The translations under genes and the position numbers were made by a program. The notes under the pieces are model-generated. The model saw only the letters and a list, made by a program, of their open reading frames with translations. It was not told the DNA's origin and did not search any database. Below, one piece after another: positions 34,930-45,047 of a stretch of 64,000 nucleotides of DNA. Numbering within the stretch: the stretch's first letter is position 1; the number at the start of each line of letters is the position of its first letter. This DNA is from the human T2T-CHM13v2.0 reference genome, Homo sapiens, in NCBI RefSeq assembly GCF_009914755.1, contig NC_060926.1; one strand, written 5' to 3'.

Positions 34930-35545
34930 GGATTTTATTCACCGTCCATGCGGCCCCGAGTTGTCCCAAAGCGAGGCAGTGCCCCCAAGGTCTGTGCAGA
35001 GCAGAACGCAGCTCCGCCCTCGCGGTGCCACCGGCCCGCCCGCCCGGGTCTCTGCTGAGGAGAACATTGCTCTGCCTTCGCTGTATCTCCGAAGTCTGTG
35101 CAGAGGAGAACTCAGCTCCGCCCTCGCAATGCTCTCCGGGTCTGTGCTGAGGAGAACGCAGCTCCGCCCTCGCAAAGGCACACAGCGCTGGCGCCGGCGA
35201 GGCGGAGAGGCGGACAGCGGCGGAGAGGCGGCCAGCGGCGGCGCGGCGGAGAGGCGGACAGCGGCGGAGAGGCGGCCAGCGGCGGCGCGGCGGACAGCGG
35301 CGGCGCGGCGGAGAGACGGACAGCGGCGGCGCGGCGGCGCGGCGGAGAGACGGACAGCGGCGGAGAGGCAGACAGCGGCAGCGCAGCGGAGAGGCGGCCA
35401 GCGGCGGAGAGGCGGACAGCGGCGGAGAGGCGGACAGCGGCGGCGCGGCGGAGAGACGGACAGTGGCGGAGAGGCAGACAGCGGCGGCGAGGCGCGGAGA
35501 GGCGCTGGCGCCGGCTCTGGCGCGGAGAGGCGCAGGCCCAGGCTC
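34930..35545. repeat. Interstitial TAR1 telomere-associated repeat / CpG island with GC-rich VNTR
   Basis: gtctgtgctgaggagaacgcagctccgccctcgc units followed by ggcggagaggcggacagc (18/26-bp) units, like the sequence adjoining human telomeres. Confidence 0.88.
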
Positions 35546-35889
35546 CACTCCCCAGCTGTGAAAGGGTAAGAACCCAGGGTGGCTGAGACTAGCTGGGAGG
35601 ACCTCCCTTCCACAGCTGTGCTCTTGCTCTGCCCATGCTGTCGCCTCCATCTCCACCTCCCTCTCCATCCTCACCACCAGCCCTCGAGTCAGTGGGGAGC
35701 TTTCCACTCACCAAGCCCAGGCAAGTGCATCGCGTGAATTTCTCTTGCGCCTCCCGCTAGAGGTAGAGGCGCTGTTGTCACCCTATCTGCTGAGGATATG
35801 CTGGGGCTGGCAGGGGCCACCCAAGACCAAGGGTGTCACTGTCTCCATCCTGTGCCCACCCAGTCCTGCCCCCTGGGCTCCCTTCAAAT

Positions 35890-36202
35890 CTTTTTTTTTT
35901 TTTTTTTTTGAGACAGAGTCCTGCTCTGTCTCCCAGGCTGCAGTGCAGTGGTACAATCTCAGCTCACTGCAATCTCTGCCTCCTGGGTTCAAGCGATTCT
36001 CCTGCCTCAGCCTCCCAAACTGCTGGGACTACAGGCACCCACCACCACACCCGGCTAATTTTTTATTTTTATTTTTGTATTTTTAGTAGAGATGGGGTTT
36101 CACTATGTTGGCCAGGCTGGTCTTGAACTCCTGACCTCGTGATCCCCCTGCTGCAGCCTCCCAAAGTGCTGGGATTACAGGCGTGAGCCACCACACCTGG
36201 CC
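35890..36202 (-). mobile_element. Alu SINE
   Basis: Poly-T plus antisense Alu body. Confidence 0.94.
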
Positions 36203-36502
36203 CCCTTCAAATCTTAACAGAGAAGCCACCAAAGTCTCCTTGGGTCCATCCCATGGATGGGCCTCCTGGGCCCCTCAGACCCTGGGCTTCCCTTGAGGTC
36301 CTGGAGCTATGTGGGCTCCAGCTCTGGGAAGGTGGACCCCCATGCATGTGTCCTGCCGTCACTGTCTCTATGAAGTCTGGCTCACACTAAGTGAGCCATA
36401 AGGCCTTCTTCAAGGTCATCTGTCCCACTGATTTCAGACTCAGGGCGGAGTGTGAAATCATCTGTCCCCCACAGTGCACTCAGAACCCTGTCTGGACTAG
36501 GG

Positions 36503-36621
36503 CACACACACATGCATGTGCATATGAACACACATATGCATATGCACACACACATGCAAGGCTGCAAGTCTCATGCACACACACACATGCACACACATGC
36601 ACATGCATGCTCACATGCACA
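36503..36621. repeat. (CA)/(CATG) low-complexity repeat
   Basis: cacacacatgcatgtgcatatg... Confidence 0.85.
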
Positions 36622-41541: not shown

Positions 41542-42634
41542 AATTGAATTTTTATTTTGGAAGAACCATATACCTTTATACATATTCTTTCTATGACTTA
41601 TTTTCTGTAGTTGAAGTTCAAGGGTGTTTGACAGTGTGATGTGGTTATTGTTAACCTGTATGTGGGGGCATACAGATATGTTGTTTTACTTTTTCCCATA
41701 AGGCTAAGATCATCTCCAGAAATATTAATTTTTTAGACAGCGTGATTATAGTTATTTAATACTCATATTTATCAAAATATTATATGTTAAAACCAATAAC
41801 CATCTGAACTTATTTGAATATAGTTTTTCCTATTCTGTTCTTAGAAATTTCAGTCATTAACAATCTTTACACTTAGAAAGTGTTTTAATTTTACTTTGAT
41901 GACAGGAATAGTGTTTTTCTCAATGAAATATATAATAGCAGCTTATAAGTGATAACCGTTTTCATTCTGTTTTTAAGAGAAAATACTTTGGTCTTTTTTA
42001 CCATGATAGTTTAGTGTGTGATGTCATAAAAATGGGCTGTAGCCATTTAAATTCTTGTTCAAGTGCAGAAACTAAGAGACTTCAGTTTCTATTAAGCCAT
42101 GTCAACTCCTATTAGGAGACCTTTAGTGGTTCCAGTTCCAGGGCCTTCTTGAAGAAATTGTGATACTTGTGTAAGTATATCTAGAGTTTTCTTTCCAGCA
42201 TTGGCTAAGTCACATAGCTGAGAAATATGATACATGGAGAAGGTTGCTGACTGGATGAACTTTTCTACATTGAATACTTTAAATCTGGATTCTAGAATAA
42301 AATATATTGATGCATATTTGAGTTGTCAACTGTTTATGTCTTGTTCTTTTCAGCTTCAACATTGCTTTATGGCATGTGTGGTCGTTTTTCACTCCATTGT
42401 TGTTGTTTACCCAGTTTATGGGGGTTGTAATGTTTATCACACTCCTTGGATGATTTCCGAAGGTAAGATATCTGGAATGGTTTTTCTAAAAATGAACTCA
42501 TTGAAAAAATGTCTTTTATGACAATTTTCAGTGGATGGAGCTGTAACAGACTATTTGTGAATTATTTTCAGTCATGTTTACACCAGAGTTGTCCACACTA
42601 GAATTATCCATTCGTTGAACTCTGAGATAGACTC

Positions 42635-42846
42635 CTTTTTTTTGAGACAGTGTCTCACTCTGTTGTCCAGGCTGGAGTACAGTGGCATGATCACAGCTCA
42701 CTGCAGCCTTGACCACCTGGGGGCTCAAGCGATCCTCCCACCTTAGCTTCCCAAGGAGCTGGTATTACAAACATGTGCTATCACGCTTGGCTAATTTTTA
42801 AAAATTTTTTTGTAGAAACAGAGTCTCCTTATGTTGCCCAGGCTGG
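42635..42846 (-). mobile_element. AluJ-type SINE, partial
   Basis: Antisense Alu motifs. Confidence 0.88.
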
Positions 42847-44009
42847 CAGGGGTTGGGGGCTGAGACTCTTTCTTTTGTAAAAGTTGGTTCTAAGTGACTA
42901 CTTTTTAGAGAAGGTACCCTGCCTTTCAAAGACCTCATAAAGACAGGATTTGTACCTTCCAATATAGTTAAATTCACACATTAGACCATTTTATGTTGAA
43001 ATTATATTAATTTGTGTCCGCTTATATTCAATGACTGTTGGCTAGATCATTCTTAAGAAATGGGAATACAGGAAGAATGGACAATTTTACCCAACTGGGA
43101 AAAAAAATTCTACCATCTTCTAATTATTCTGACTTCCTCATAAAAATGTGTTGGATGACACAATCAGCTTTTGTTTGGTGTTATTTATAGAATTTCTGCC
43201 TCCCTACAGATCACCCCATCCTGAGATCTGCTGCCTTACACAGTGGAGGCTGTTTTCTGAGTGTCGGATAACTCTGTTATTAAATAAGTGCATATTGAGA
43301 ATACTCACTCCAGATGCTTAGAGGCATGTTGAGAAGGACAAAGATAGTGCCTCCTGTCAGGTCACTTACATCAGAACTTGCAGGAAACCTGCTTTATACA
43401 GCAGTTGACAGGTGTGGAAATTGAAGCTCATGGAAATGAAAGTTAATACACTAAATTTTCAAGGAGTTAATGAAAACTGACATTTCTGCTAAAAACAGCA
43501 TGTTCTCCCTGTGGGATTTTAAAGGAAGGTCAATGGTAACTGTACAAAGAAGAAATGGACATAGTCTCATTGTTAGCAGTCTGAAAATAGTTGCTAGCAC
43601 CTCCATGCCCACGCCAATGTCTCCAGCCTCCTTCAAGCACCTTGCTGTGTCTTGGAACCATTGGGAGCCCTCACAGGAGGCCCTTCGTTCCTGTATGCAT
43701 GTGGTGCCACAAGCTGCTTTGGGCCCGGAGGAATCCTACACATCTCAGAACACTTCCTCACCTGACCCTGTCACCCATCTCTCCCCTTCTCATGTGCTCA
43801 GCCCCTTCTTTGACTCTTGAATTTTGAGTTTTTACAGATGTTTGGGAGCTCTTACTCTGACATGAATTTATAATTGTAATGGAGACTCAGACAACGTTGT
43901 AGATCACAGAGTGAACTATGCTTTTTAGTGTTAAATGCAATAGCTTAAGATAGAATGTTTTACTTGTTACATAAATGCTGGTTTTCTTTCAGATTTAAGG
44001 ACATATACT

Positions 44010-44138
44010 TTATTTTTTTAAGAGATAGGGTCTTCTATGTTGTCCAGGCTGGCTTTGAACTCCTGGGATCAAGTGATCCTCCTGCCTCAGCCTTCGAAGT
44101 AGTTGGGACTACAGGCCCACGCCACCGTGCATGGCTGG
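44010..44138 (-). mobile_element. Alu monomer (FLAM-like) in the TMEM128 3'UTR exon
   Basis: agatagggtcttctatgttgtccaggctggctttgaactcctggg. Confidence 0.8.
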
Positions 44139-45047
44139 ACACGTAAATTTGAATTGAATGGTTAAACATCCAGCTAGCTGAAAGCATGGCAGACCCTAAC
44201 AGAAAAGCTACAGTGTGTTTTTGCAACTATGAAGTGAATGGTTTCCTGGGGAAAATTGTGACTTTGTATAACTATTTTTGAAACCAGAATAAATTATATT
44301 TCACTTGCATATTCTTAAATTATTAAAATTTTCAGAAGTCAGTGATACAGAAATACTATTTTGCAATGTTAATCTGTTTGAGTCTTTGGAGAAAGTGGTT
44401 TCATTGTAGGTACATGATGCACTCTTAATATTTTAAACAAATAGTTCACTCTTCCATTTAAGGGATATCAGTTCCTTGTATAAAATGACTGGATATGTAT
44501 AAAGCAATTATGTTGTCATGTGCCTTTAACCAGCTTTAGTAATTACTATAATCTCATATTTATGATAGTTTTGTTAGGTGACAGGACCAAATGAAAATAT
44601 TTTATGTTTTCCCATCACTTTAGATTTTATCATTGTGTAAATTACTGGGTTTTTAGCATTTCCTAATGTGAAGTTTTAATCATTTTTAAGTATACATATT
44701 TTTTTTCTGTACCATTTAAATAAAATATTTTTATAACTTTCTTGTGAGTTTTGTTCATGCAAACTTTGGAATGACTTCTGGTTTTTAGCTATTAGCACTT
44801 TGAATTAACCATAGAAATAACAAGGGCTAACTCTGTTCTTCAAAGACTTTATAAAGACAGTATTTGCACTTTCAAATGCAAATATATCTACATTAAATCT
44901 AAACAGCATAAGCATTGTGACAGAATGTACCTCATGTTGATTGTTTTCTCTGTAAGGTGACTTCTAGTAATGATTTGACTTAATCACCACTTGTGTCTGG
45001 TTCAGATCATACCCTGCCATTTACTAGCTGCAAGACCTTCAGTAGTA

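What the first reader, a model, noticed from the sequence alone, without database searches (positions are those of the whole stretch)
35129..44740. Candidate new chimeric gene: TAR1 CpG-island exon splices in frame onto the orphan TMEM128 transmembrane exon
Seen: a strong donor (aaagg|gtaaga, 35565/6) sits right after the TAR1 VNTR. An ATG at 35129 (gcaATGc) stays open through the VNTR for 437 nt (145 codons + 2 nt). The promoterless TMEM128 exon at 42354 is phase 2, so the splice gives GG|C, then FNIALWHVW...LLG*. The product would be 178 aa: an Arg/Ala/Gly-rich repeat head on a hydrophobic TMEM128 tail. The stop is 9 nt before the last junction, so it should escape NMD, and a terminal exon with AATAAA follows. 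Known: TAR1 CpG repeats act as promoters at subtelomeres. Inference: duplicon juxtaposition may have built a transcription unit. The phase match has a 1-in-3 chance of being coincidence, and a lncRNA is at least as likely as a protein.
Basis: partly seen in the sequence, partly recalled or inferred. Interest (0 to 1): 0.8.

Follow-up and report, generated by a model that had tools for sequence, protein, structure and literature searches.

The report
Three-duplicon lncRNA; chimeric ORF by chance
The stretch is a patchwork of three copied DNA segments that is annotated as a non-coding RNA gene, and the 178-residue "chimeric protein" read from it is most likely an accident of a GC-rich repeat that has almost no stop codons.

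Summary
Every coordinate and piece of arithmetic in the finding checks out: ATG 35129, 437 open nt, donor 35565/6, acceptor 42354, a 178-aa product, stop 9 nt before the last junction, AATAAA at 44719. None of it exceeds chance. All six frames are open across the repeat. The frame stays open in 941 of 2000 dinucleotide shuffles. The phase match is 1 in 3.

The locus is a mosaic of three duplicons:
- a TERRA-promoter-like (TAR1) CpG repeat, in reverse orientation;
- a chr10 piece;
- the 3' end of TMEM128 from chr4, as part of the published psi-TMEM128/psi-OTOP1 duplication.

It occurs in six near-identical copies, on chr2 and chr1.

The RefSeq lncRNA models start at 35377, 35480 or 35502. All three lie downstream of the ATG, and those first exons hold no ATG. 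In eight copies of the repeat exon the ATG-to-donor length varies from 430 to 1488 nt. Only the window and its 100% identical inverted twin give the in-frame fusion. No such protein was found in a 5.8-billion-protein library.

Verdict: an ordinary duplicon-juxtaposition lncRNA. The coding claim is not supported.

The parts
34912..35533 (-). TERRA-promoter-like (TAR1) CpG-island block. The TERRA direction is the - strand. No telomere repeats flank it.
   Evidence: Aligns in reverse to the Xq TERRA promoter, chrX:154255664-154256418 (best HSP 74% over 537 columns, E 2e-86). Aligns forward to 18p at 2045-2692, just inside the (CCCTAA)n tract (76%). CpG o/e is 1.00 over 34900-35600. There are 0 CCCTAA/TTAGGG in 33001-36000.
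35044..35175 (.). 46-bp tandem units, 2.9 copies. They lie where the 37-bp repeats lie in the Xq promoter.
   Evidence: TRF. Position relative to the Xq alignment. The label '37-like' is my inference.
35190..35505 (.). GC-rich VNTR (18/26/44/62-bp periods), homologous to the 29-bp core-promoter array of TERRA promoters in reverse complement.
   Evidence: TRF. GC 0.81, CpG o/e 1.35. Aligns to chrX:154255784-154256117, which holds the 29-bp x 9 array.
35129..35565 (+). Judged a chance open frame.
   Evidence: No Pfam family. No database relative at E <= 0.001.
35377..35565 (+). Annotated first exon of LOC124906037 (alternative starts at 35480 and 35502), ending at the donor AGG|GTAAGA.
   Evidence: Hub RefSeq table. 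The donor is read. No ATG in any of the three variants. The donor is kept in 8 of 8 copies.
35583..35590 (.). Junction of a copy-specific 8.7-kb deletion, with about 8 bp of microhomology. It shortens intron 1 in the window and its twin.
   Evidence: Homology on the C2:91.75 copy ends at 35590, and the chr10-type homology starts at 35583-35586. The other copies hold about 8.7 kb between the two.
35583..39998 (+). chr10-derived duplicon (source chr10:43746103-43750655, 92-94% identical).
39301..39762 (+). Annotated exon 2 (variants from 39291 and from 38809), lying in the chr10-derived piece. Its acceptors are identical in chr10 and its GT donor is also present there.
   Evidence: Hub RefSeq table.
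39997..46000 (+). chr4p16.3-derived duplicon: the end of TMEM128 intron 3, the last coding exon, the 3'UTR exon and downstream sequence. It continues toward the OTOP1-like pseudogene. The chr10/chr4 junction is at 39997-39998.
   Evidence: 95% identical to chr4:4203706-4209691 on the - strand. Window 60001-63791 also matches chr4:4185438-4189209.
42354..42462 (+). TMEM128 last coding exon (32 codons, then TGA at 42451-42453). Its native acceptor and donor are kept.
   Evidence: Pfam PF20479. The peptide is identical in the chr4 parent and in all six copies, with one synonymous difference from chr4.
43210..44740 (+). TMEM128-derived 3'UTR exon, with AATAAA at 44719.
   Evidence: Hub RefSeq table.

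Best explanation
Window 34.9-46 kb is a pericentromeric mosaic of three duplicons:
(i) a TERRA-promoter-like (TAR1) CpG-island repeat block lacking telomere repeats and the 61-bp repeat;
(ii) a 4.4-kb piece copied from chr10;
(iii) the 3' end of TMEM128 (last coding exon plus 3'UTR exon), part of the chr4p16.3 TMEM128/OTOP1 duplication.

The CpG island fires in the direction opposite to TERRA. The transcript uses the donor at 35565, usually an exon carried in by the chr10 piece, and then the intact native splice sites and polyadenylation signal of the TMEM128 remnant. The product is a chimeric non-coding RNA, RefSeq LOC124906037.

The 178-aa ORF is a by-product of a repeat with almost no T, so almost no stops, plus a 1-in-3 phase coincidence peculiar to this copy's repeat length. 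It is not a protein-coding gene.

Shown: the mosaic, its sources, the orientation, the copy number and the frame behaviour. Inferred: that the island is the promoter, and that the RNA has no protein product.
For: - Mosaic and sources: chr10:43746106-43750655 at 91-94% and chr4:4204904-4209691 at 95%. GC drops from about 0.57 to about 0.37 at 40000.
- TERRA-promoter homology is in reverse orientation.
- Six copies at about 99-100% share the chr10/chr4 junction: three on C2, three on C1.
- Annotated starts 35377/35480/35502 lie downstream of the ATG, and those exons have no ATG (hub table).
The 39291 variant ends it at 248 aa.
- The longest ORFs of the listed model are 116 aa (in the 3'UTR exon) and 89 aa. 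Neither is in the TMEM128 frame.
- All six frames are open over the VNTR. The frame is open in 941 of 2000 shuffles.
- ATG-to-donor lengths in 8 copies are 437, 437, 484, 430, 580, 1118, 1488 and 1126 nt, giving phases 2, 2, 1, 1, 1, 2, 0, 1. The third phase-2 copy has a stop at codon 252. Only the window and its identical twin give the fusion: 2 of the 6 copies that carry the TMEM128 exon.
- None of the 99 library proteins that match the tail joins it to the repeat head (best blastp E 0.25). Nothing of 79-254 aa matches the head at E <= 0.001.
- Print: a ~60-kb SD holding psi-OTOP1 and psi-TMEM128 at the chr2 pericentromere (PMC3038909, passages).
- Print: 106 interstitial TERRA-like promoters in T2T-CHM13, enriched at 2p11.2 and 1q21.1. 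Of these, 97 lack the 61-bp repeat, and 47 lie within 100 bp of the start of a pseudogene or ncRNA gene in forward or reverse orientation (bioRxiv 10.1101/2025.05.15.654290; abstract, section 5 and passages).
Against: - The RefSeq models are predictions. 5' ends in an 81% GC repeat that exists in many copies are unreliable, so a start upstream of 35129 is not excluded.
- The exon-2 acceptors have a poor pyrimidine tract, while the TMEM128 acceptor is strong. Skipping, and so the direct 35565-42354 join, is plausible. Only one of the five transcripts was given in full, so one with the direct join may exist.
- The ATG has a purine at -3.
- The preprint reports that most interstitial repeat arrays have the same length in GRCh38 and T2T. 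That weakens my inference that this array's length, and so the phase, varies among people.
- I had no RNA, CAGE, Ribo-seq or proteomic data.
Confidence: 0.85

Rival explanations
1. A minor isoform starts upstream of 35129, skips the chr10-derived exon and is translated into a 178-aa protein. The protein has an Arg/Gly/Ala-rich basic head (net charge +28) and a 32-residue hydrophobic TMEM128 tail that could anchor it in a membrane.
For: - The ORF, phase, stop position and polyadenylation signal are all as described.
- The donor and the TMEM128 acceptor are good, and the exon-2 acceptor is weak.
- The tail is strongly hydrophobic: mean Kyte-Doolittle 1.55, best 19-residue window 1.94.
- CpG-island promoters start transcription at scattered sites (general knowledge).
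Against: - No annotated start includes the ATG (hub table).
- The listed model's exon 2 stops the frame.
- The frame is not kept in 6 of 8 copies.
- The open frame is expected from composition.
- The head has no Pfam family and no database relative.
- None of the 99 tail-matching proteins is such a chimera.
- The tail is only the last quarter of the TMEM128 profile and begins at an exon boundary inside the hydrophobic region.
Confidence: 0.04
2. This copy is silent. The lncRNA model at this copy was projected from RNA reads that really come from paralogous copies (C2:91.76, the three C1 copies, or the TMEM128 parent for the last two exons). Such reads cannot be placed uniquely.
For: - The TMEM128 exon plus 30 nt on each side is 100% identical in all six copies, and 167 of 169 nt identical to chr4.
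- The whole window has a ~100% identical inverted twin.
- The models are 'predicted' (hub table).
- Subtelomere-type CpG islands are often methylated (abstract of PMC6600276, seen in the listing).
Against: The spliced exons are near-identical in all copies, so this rival concerns which copies are active, not what the unit is. Nothing in the sequence disables the window copy: the donor, acceptors and poly(A) signal are intact, and the 8.7-kb deletion only shortens intron 1.
Confidence: 0.1

Closest known systems
Interstitial TERRA-like promoters flanked by ncRNA or pseudogene genes (Santagostino et al., bioRxiv 10.1101/2025.05.15.654290; abstract, section 5 and passages read)
   Same: - A CpG-island block homologous to the 29/37-bp repeats of the Xq TERRA promoter, inside a segmental duplication.
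- It lies on chr2 near the centromere, with copies on chr1 at 142-144 Mb. That these places are the paper's enriched bands 2p11.2 and 1q21.1 is my inference from coordinates.
- There is no 61-bp repeat and no adjacent telomere repeats.
- A gene starts at the promoter in the reverse orientation.
   Different: The preprint's main text does not discuss splicing onto exons of other duplicons.
psi-TMEM128 / psi-OTOP1 ~60-kb segmental duplication at the chr2 pericentromere (Hurle et al. 2011, PMC3038909; passages read)
   Same: It has the same content and order: a TMEM128-like piece, then an OTOP1-like pseudogene, about 95-96% identical to chr4p16.3, in the chr2 pericentromeric region. The pseudogene region is reported as transcribed.
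   Different: The paper speaks of a single chr2 copy in human and gorilla. T2T-CHM13 holds six copies, three on C2 and three on C1. The passages I read do not describe the upstream chr10 and TAR1-like duplicons or a chimeric transcript.
Genes born by incomplete duplication that gain a new promoter or first exon, such as HYDIN2 at 1q21.1 (PMC5345166; listing and abstract only)
   Same: Internal or terminal exons of a parent gene are copied without their promoter and transcribed from sequence at the new site.
   Different: HYDIN2 keeps a long parental ORF of many exons. Here only 32 parental codons remain, the annotated transcripts carry no ORF in that frame, and the candidate frame is not kept among copies.
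TMEM128 (Pfam PF20479), the parent gene on chr4
   Same: The last coding exon, its splice sites, the stop 9 nt before the last junction and the 3'UTR exon are copied intact. The peptide is identical.
   Different: The exons for profile positions 3-92 are absent from the duplicon. The hypothetical product would share only the last 32 of 165 residues.

Membership tests
TMEM128 protein family (PF20479) | Match to the family profile above the curated cut-off | tested here: met
   37.9 bits against a cut-off of 23.9, E 2.9e-9. The match covers only profile positions 94-124 of 124.
TMEM128 protein family (PF20479) | Full-length domain: the exons for the first three quarters of the profile are present at the locus | tested here: not met
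   Matches to profile 3-41 (E 0.48, below the cut-off) and 36-92 that sit beside a last exon are on chr4 only (4215604-4215726 and 4209744-4209911). All six duplicon copies hold only positions 85-124. The duplicon ends at chr4:4209691.
TERRA-type CpG-island promoter (61-29-37 repeats, TAR1) | Sequence homology to the 29-bp and 37-bp repeat tracts of the reference Xq promoter | tested here: met
   Window 34979-35497 against chrX:154255784-154256306, 74% over 537 columns, E 2e-86, reverse strand. The block is 76% identical to the telomere-adjacent block of 18p.
TERRA-type CpG-island promoter (61-29-37 repeats, TAR1) | 61-bp repeat tract present | tested here: not met
   No alignment at E <= 1e-3 reaches the 61-bp array, which TRF places at chrX:154255348-154255569. 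Alignments stop at 154255664. The preprint says 97 of 106 interstitial promoters lack it.
TERRA-type CpG-island promoter (61-29-37 repeats, TAR1) | Adjacent telomeric repeats, with transcription toward them | tested here: not met
   There are 0 CCCTAA/TTAGGG hexamers in 33001-36000. The annotated lncRNA runs on the strand opposite to the TERRA direction (hub table).
TERRA-type CpG-island promoter (61-29-37 repeats, TAR1) | Promoter activity | not testable with these tools
   There is only indirect support: three predicted starts lie inside the array (hub table), and CpG o/e is 1.35.
Protein-coding chimeric gene born by duplicon juxtaposition | Transcript that contains the start codon and joins the two coding parts in frame | tested here: not met
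   For the RefSeq models given, all starts are downstream of 35129 and the listed model has an intervening exon that stops the frame (hub table). Four of the five transcripts were not given in full, so this holds for what was listed.
Protein-coding chimeric gene born by duplicon juxtaposition | Reading frame maintained among copies, or more open than composition predicts | tested here: not met
   Phases are 2, 2, 1, 1, 1, 2, 0, 1 in 8 copies. The frame is open in 941 of 2000 shuffles, and all six frames are open.
Protein-coding chimeric gene born by duplicon juxtaposition | Evidence of translation (Ribo-seq, peptides) | not testable with these tools
   No such data were on hand. No matching protein was found in the 5.8-billion-protein library.
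Chimeric lncRNA / transcribed pseudogene of a segmental-duplication mosaic | Exons drawn from different ancestral loci, with intact splice and poly(A) signals and no ORF that continues a parental frame | tested here: met
   Signals are. No Rfam family was found in 33000-46000.

The most novel reading that the evidence does not exclude
In this haplotype, one duplication lineage (the window copy and its perfect inverted twin) has a repeat length that puts ATG 35129 in frame with the last TMEM128 coding exon. It also has an 8.7-kb deletion that shortens intron 1. A minor transcript that starts in the 37-like repeats and skips the weak chr10-derived exon could then make a copy-specific, possibly human-polymorphic, 178-aa protein. 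That protein would have a highly basic head, translated from reverse-complemented TERRA core-promoter repeats, tail-anchored by the final hydrophobic segment of TMEM128.
Probability: 0.04. Interest if true: 0.6.

Novelty: new member of a known kind. Interest (0 to 1): 0.15.

Why it matters
If the coding reading were true, it would be a very young protein whose head is translated promoter repeat, and whose existence would depend on a VNTR length. That would be a neat case of gene birth by duplicon shuffling.

As the evidence stands, the locus is an ordinary example of what pericentromeric duplication mosaics do. A CpG island from one duplicon drives a spliced, polyadenylated non-coding RNA that borrows intact splice and poly(A) signals from gene fragments of other duplicons.

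Its practical value is as a caution. In T-poor, GC-rich repeats, long open frames and phase matches carry almost no information. Six near-identical copies also make any short-read expression evidence ambiguous.

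Tried and rejected
- The 32-aa tail was too short for the search for homologous proteins. I used the 43-aa open frame of the window instead.
- Rfam at gathering thresholds over 33000-46000 gave 0 matches.
- Pfam on the 145-aa head gave 0 families at E <= 10.
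- A literature search for 'LOC124906037' found 0 papers.
- 'TMEM128' with 'segmental duplication' found 3 papers, of which only PMC3038909 concerns this duplication.
- A TAR1 / chimeric-transcript search gave nothing specific to this locus, judged from its listing of 12 of 29 papers.
- I considered that selection keeps the TMEM128 exon, because it shows 2 differences in 169 nt against about 5% for the surrounding duplicon. I rejected this as uninformative. The parent lineage is constrained, the exon is short, and the six copies are too alike to test.
- I did not identify the chr10 source gene. No annotation for that region was on hand. The ORFs of the exon (89-105 aa) were not searched further.
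- I did not fold the hypothetical protein. A joined sequence is not the window's own, and the result would not bear on whether it is made.

Full report
**1. Observation**

The coordinates are exact.
- ATG sits at 35129-35131. The frame runs without a stop for 437 nt to AGG|GTAAGA at 35565/35566.
- Exon 42354-42462 follows a long pyrimidine tract. Read from 42355, it gives 32 residues and then TGA at 42451-42453, 9 nt before the donor at 42462.
- Joining the two by coordinates in a script gives a first ORF of 178 aa.
- The terminal exon ends 21 nt after an AATAAA at 44719.
- The 32 residues match Pfam PF20479 (TMEM128) at E 2.9e-9, over profile positions 94-124 of 124. They are identical to the C-terminus of human TMEM128, P0006, 165 aa.

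**2. Is it more than chance? No.**
- The 437 nt contain 214 G, 126 C, 79 A and 18 T.
- There are only two stop triplets on the + strand, both in one other frame, and none on the - strand.
- Stop-to-stop ORFs of 136-280 aa cover the repeat in all six frames.

**3. What the region is**

The T2T genome could be searched. The stretch is a mosaic of three duplicons.

(a) Block 34912-35533.
- It aligns to the first 650 bp inside the (CCCTAA)n tract of the 18p end: 76%, same strand.
- It aligns in reverse to the reference Xq TERRA promoter, chrX:154255664-154256418. The best HSP is 74% over 537 columns, E 2e-86. The reference coordinates come from bioRxiv 10.1101/2025.05.15.654290, section 5.
- The VNTR at 35190-35505 falls on the Xq 29-bp core-promoter array. 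The 46-bp units at 35044-35175 fall where the 37-bp repeats lie.
- No 61-bp repeats and no telomere hexamers are present.
- So 'TAR1 CpG island' is right, but the TERRA direction is the - strand. The + strand lncRNA runs the other way.
- Similar blocks lie at many pericentromeric sites on C1, C2, C9, C14, C15, C16, C20 and C22, among others. The search listed 73 matches, with 40 of 150 candidates scored.

(b) Window 35583-39998 is 92-94% identical to chr10:43746103-43750655.

(c) From 39997 onward, the window is 95% identical to chr4:4203706-4209691 on the - strand.
- This is TMEM128 from about 50 bp into the intron that follows the exon at chr4:4209744-4209911, through the last coding exon and the 3'UTR exon.
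- Homology to chr4 continues to the end of the window, toward the annotated OTOP1-like pseudogene.
- GC content falls from about 0.57 to about 0.37 at the chr10/chr4 junction.

**4. Copies**
- The chr10/chr4 junction is shared by six copies at about 99-100% identity: C2:90.06 (the window), C2:89.68, C2:91.76, C1:142.41, C1:143.27 and C1:143.90.
- The C2:89.68 copy is a ~100% identical inverted twin of the whole 64-kb window.
- In the four other copies, about 8.7 kb separates the donor from the point that corresponds to 35586. This is a 2.35-kb duplicon followed by more of the chr10 segment.
- The window and its twin have lost this stretch at a junction with about 8 bp of microhomology, 35583-35590. 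The deletion only shortens intron 1.

**5.

The hub's RefSeq table gives first-exon starts at 35377, 35480 and 35502. All lie downstream of ATG 35129, and none of these exons holds an ATG. The one fully listed model, XR_007072290.1, inserts exon 39301-39762.
- With the 39291 acceptor, it stops after 248 aa inside that exon.
- In the listed model, the first ATG opens an 89-aa ORF in the chr10-derived exon. The longest ORF (116 aa) lies in the 3'UTR exon.
- Even with exon 2 skipped, a transcript from 35377 has its first ATG in another frame of the TMEM128 exon, giving 51 aa.

In fairness:
- The exon-2 acceptors have a poor pyrimidine tract and the TMEM128 acceptor is strong, so skipping is plausible.
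- Four of the five transcripts were not listed in full.
- Predicted 5' ends in an 81% GC multi-copy repeat are unreliable.

**6. Paralog test**

The ATG, its context and the donor are present in all eight copies of the repeat exon that I examined. The ATG-to-donor length varies:

| Copy | Length (nt) | Phase |
|---|---|---|
| window (C2:90.06) | 437 | 2 |
| twin (C2:89.68) | 437 | 2 |
| C2:90.80 | 484 | 1 |
| C2:91.75 | 430 | 1 |
| C2:87.35 | 580 | 1 |
| C1:143.91 | 1118 | 2 |
| C1:143.25 | 1488 | 0 |
| C1:142.40 | 1126 | 1 |

The third phase-2 copy has a stop at codon 252. Of the six copies that carry the TMEM128 exon downstream, only the window and its identical twin would give the fusion. 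These two count as one independent lineage. The repeat changes length without regard to frame.

The TMEM128 exon peptide is identical in all copies and in chr4, with one synonymous difference. The exon is too short, and the copies too alike, to say anything about selection.

**7. Database test**
- With the 43-aa open frame that contains the exon, 99 of 100 candidate proteins matched, all carrying PF20479. Among those that preserve the start of the tail, the residues just before it are TMEM128-like or belong to fish or other orthologs.
- None of the 99 resembles the repeat head (best blastp E 0.25).
- With the 145-aa head, none of 8000 scored candidates of 79-254 aa reached E <= 0.001.
- This is weak negative evidence. 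The library does include proteins predicted from assembled transcripts.

**8. What is in print**
- Hurle et al. 2011 (PMC3038909; passages read) describe a ~60-kb duplication with psi-OTOP1 and psi-TMEM128 in the chr2 pericentromere. It is 96% identical to chr4, and psi-OTOP1 is transcribed.
- Santagostino et al. (bioRxiv 2025; abstract, section 5 and passages read) map 106 interstitial TERRA-like promoters in T2T-CHM13, enriched at 1q21.1, 2p11.2, 9p11.2, 9q21.11 and 16p11.2.
  - 97 of them lack the 61-bp repeat.
  - 47 have a pseudogene or ncRNA gene that starts within 100 bp, in forward or reverse orientation.
  - The authors speculate that loss of the 61-bp repeat allows transcription in both directions.
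- 'LOC124906037' occurs in 0 papers of the searched library.
- HYDIN2 (PMC5345166; listing and abstract only) is the textbook case of an incomplete duplication that gains a new promoter and does remain coding.

**9. Mechanism and verdict**

Most likely (0.85): the CpG island of the TERRA-promoter-like block fires in reverse. The transcript is spliced from the donor at 35565 to the chr10-derived exon, and then to the intact TMEM128 acceptor, donor, last exon and poly(A) signal. The result is a chimeric lncRNA present in up to six copies.

The mosaic, the orientation and the frame behaviour are shown. Promoter use and non-translation are inferred.

Rivals:
- The 178-aa protein is made from a minor isoform (0.04).
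- This copy is silent, and its model was projected from reads of paralogs (0.10).

The transcription unit is a new member of a known kind, and the coding claim is not supported. Interest is low.

Noticed in passing
window 1-64000 (twin at G000:C2:89653381-89717359, - strand): The whole 64-kb window has a ~100% identical inverted copy about 307 kb away, inside the IGK span. This is a very young or homogenised palindrome. Every feature of the window therefore exists twice.
   Followed up: partly
window 39997-64000; copies at C2:91.76, C1:142.41, C1:143.27, C1:143.90 and C2:89.67: The TMEM128/OTOP1-like duplicon is present six times in T2T-CHM13, three on chr2 and three on chr1. The 2011 description (PMC3038909; passages) speaks of one chr2 pericentromeric copy.
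   Followed up: partly
window 35583-35590: The window and its twin lack 8.7 kb that the four other mosaic copies carry between the TAR1-like donor and the chr10 piece. The junction has about 8 bp of microhomology.
   Followed up: yes
G000:C18:2073-2663, 56149-56739, 110147-110737, 164186-164776: TERRA-promoter-like blocks recur four times with a ~54-kb period from the 18p end, with identical scores. This suggests a tandemly repeated subtelomeric unit.
   Followed up: no
window 41230-42462: RefSeq lists an alternative first exon that starts inside a masked repeat (41198-41566) and reads through the intron into the TMEM128 exon. Its 96-aa ORF is not in the TMEM128 frame (hub table).
   Followed up: partly
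window 38809-39762; chr10:43749439-43750421: The chr10-derived exon keeps identical acceptors and a GT donor in the chr10 source, so it may be an ancestral exon of an unidentified chr10 transcript. Despite 0.57 GC, the stretch is CpG-poor (o/e 0.18).
   Followed up: partly
G000:C4:81343918-81344879 and G000:C19:42434822-42435725: Two further TMEM128-like places match both coding and 3'UTR sequence contiguously at about 88%. They look like processed pseudogenes.
   Followed up: no
window 1-4000: The left end of the window is 88% identical to C23:674944-678803 and C24:691284-695152 (X/Y short-arm ends). It also recurs at pericentromeric sites on C1, C15, C16 and C22, so it is another widely dispersed duplicon.
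   Followed up: no
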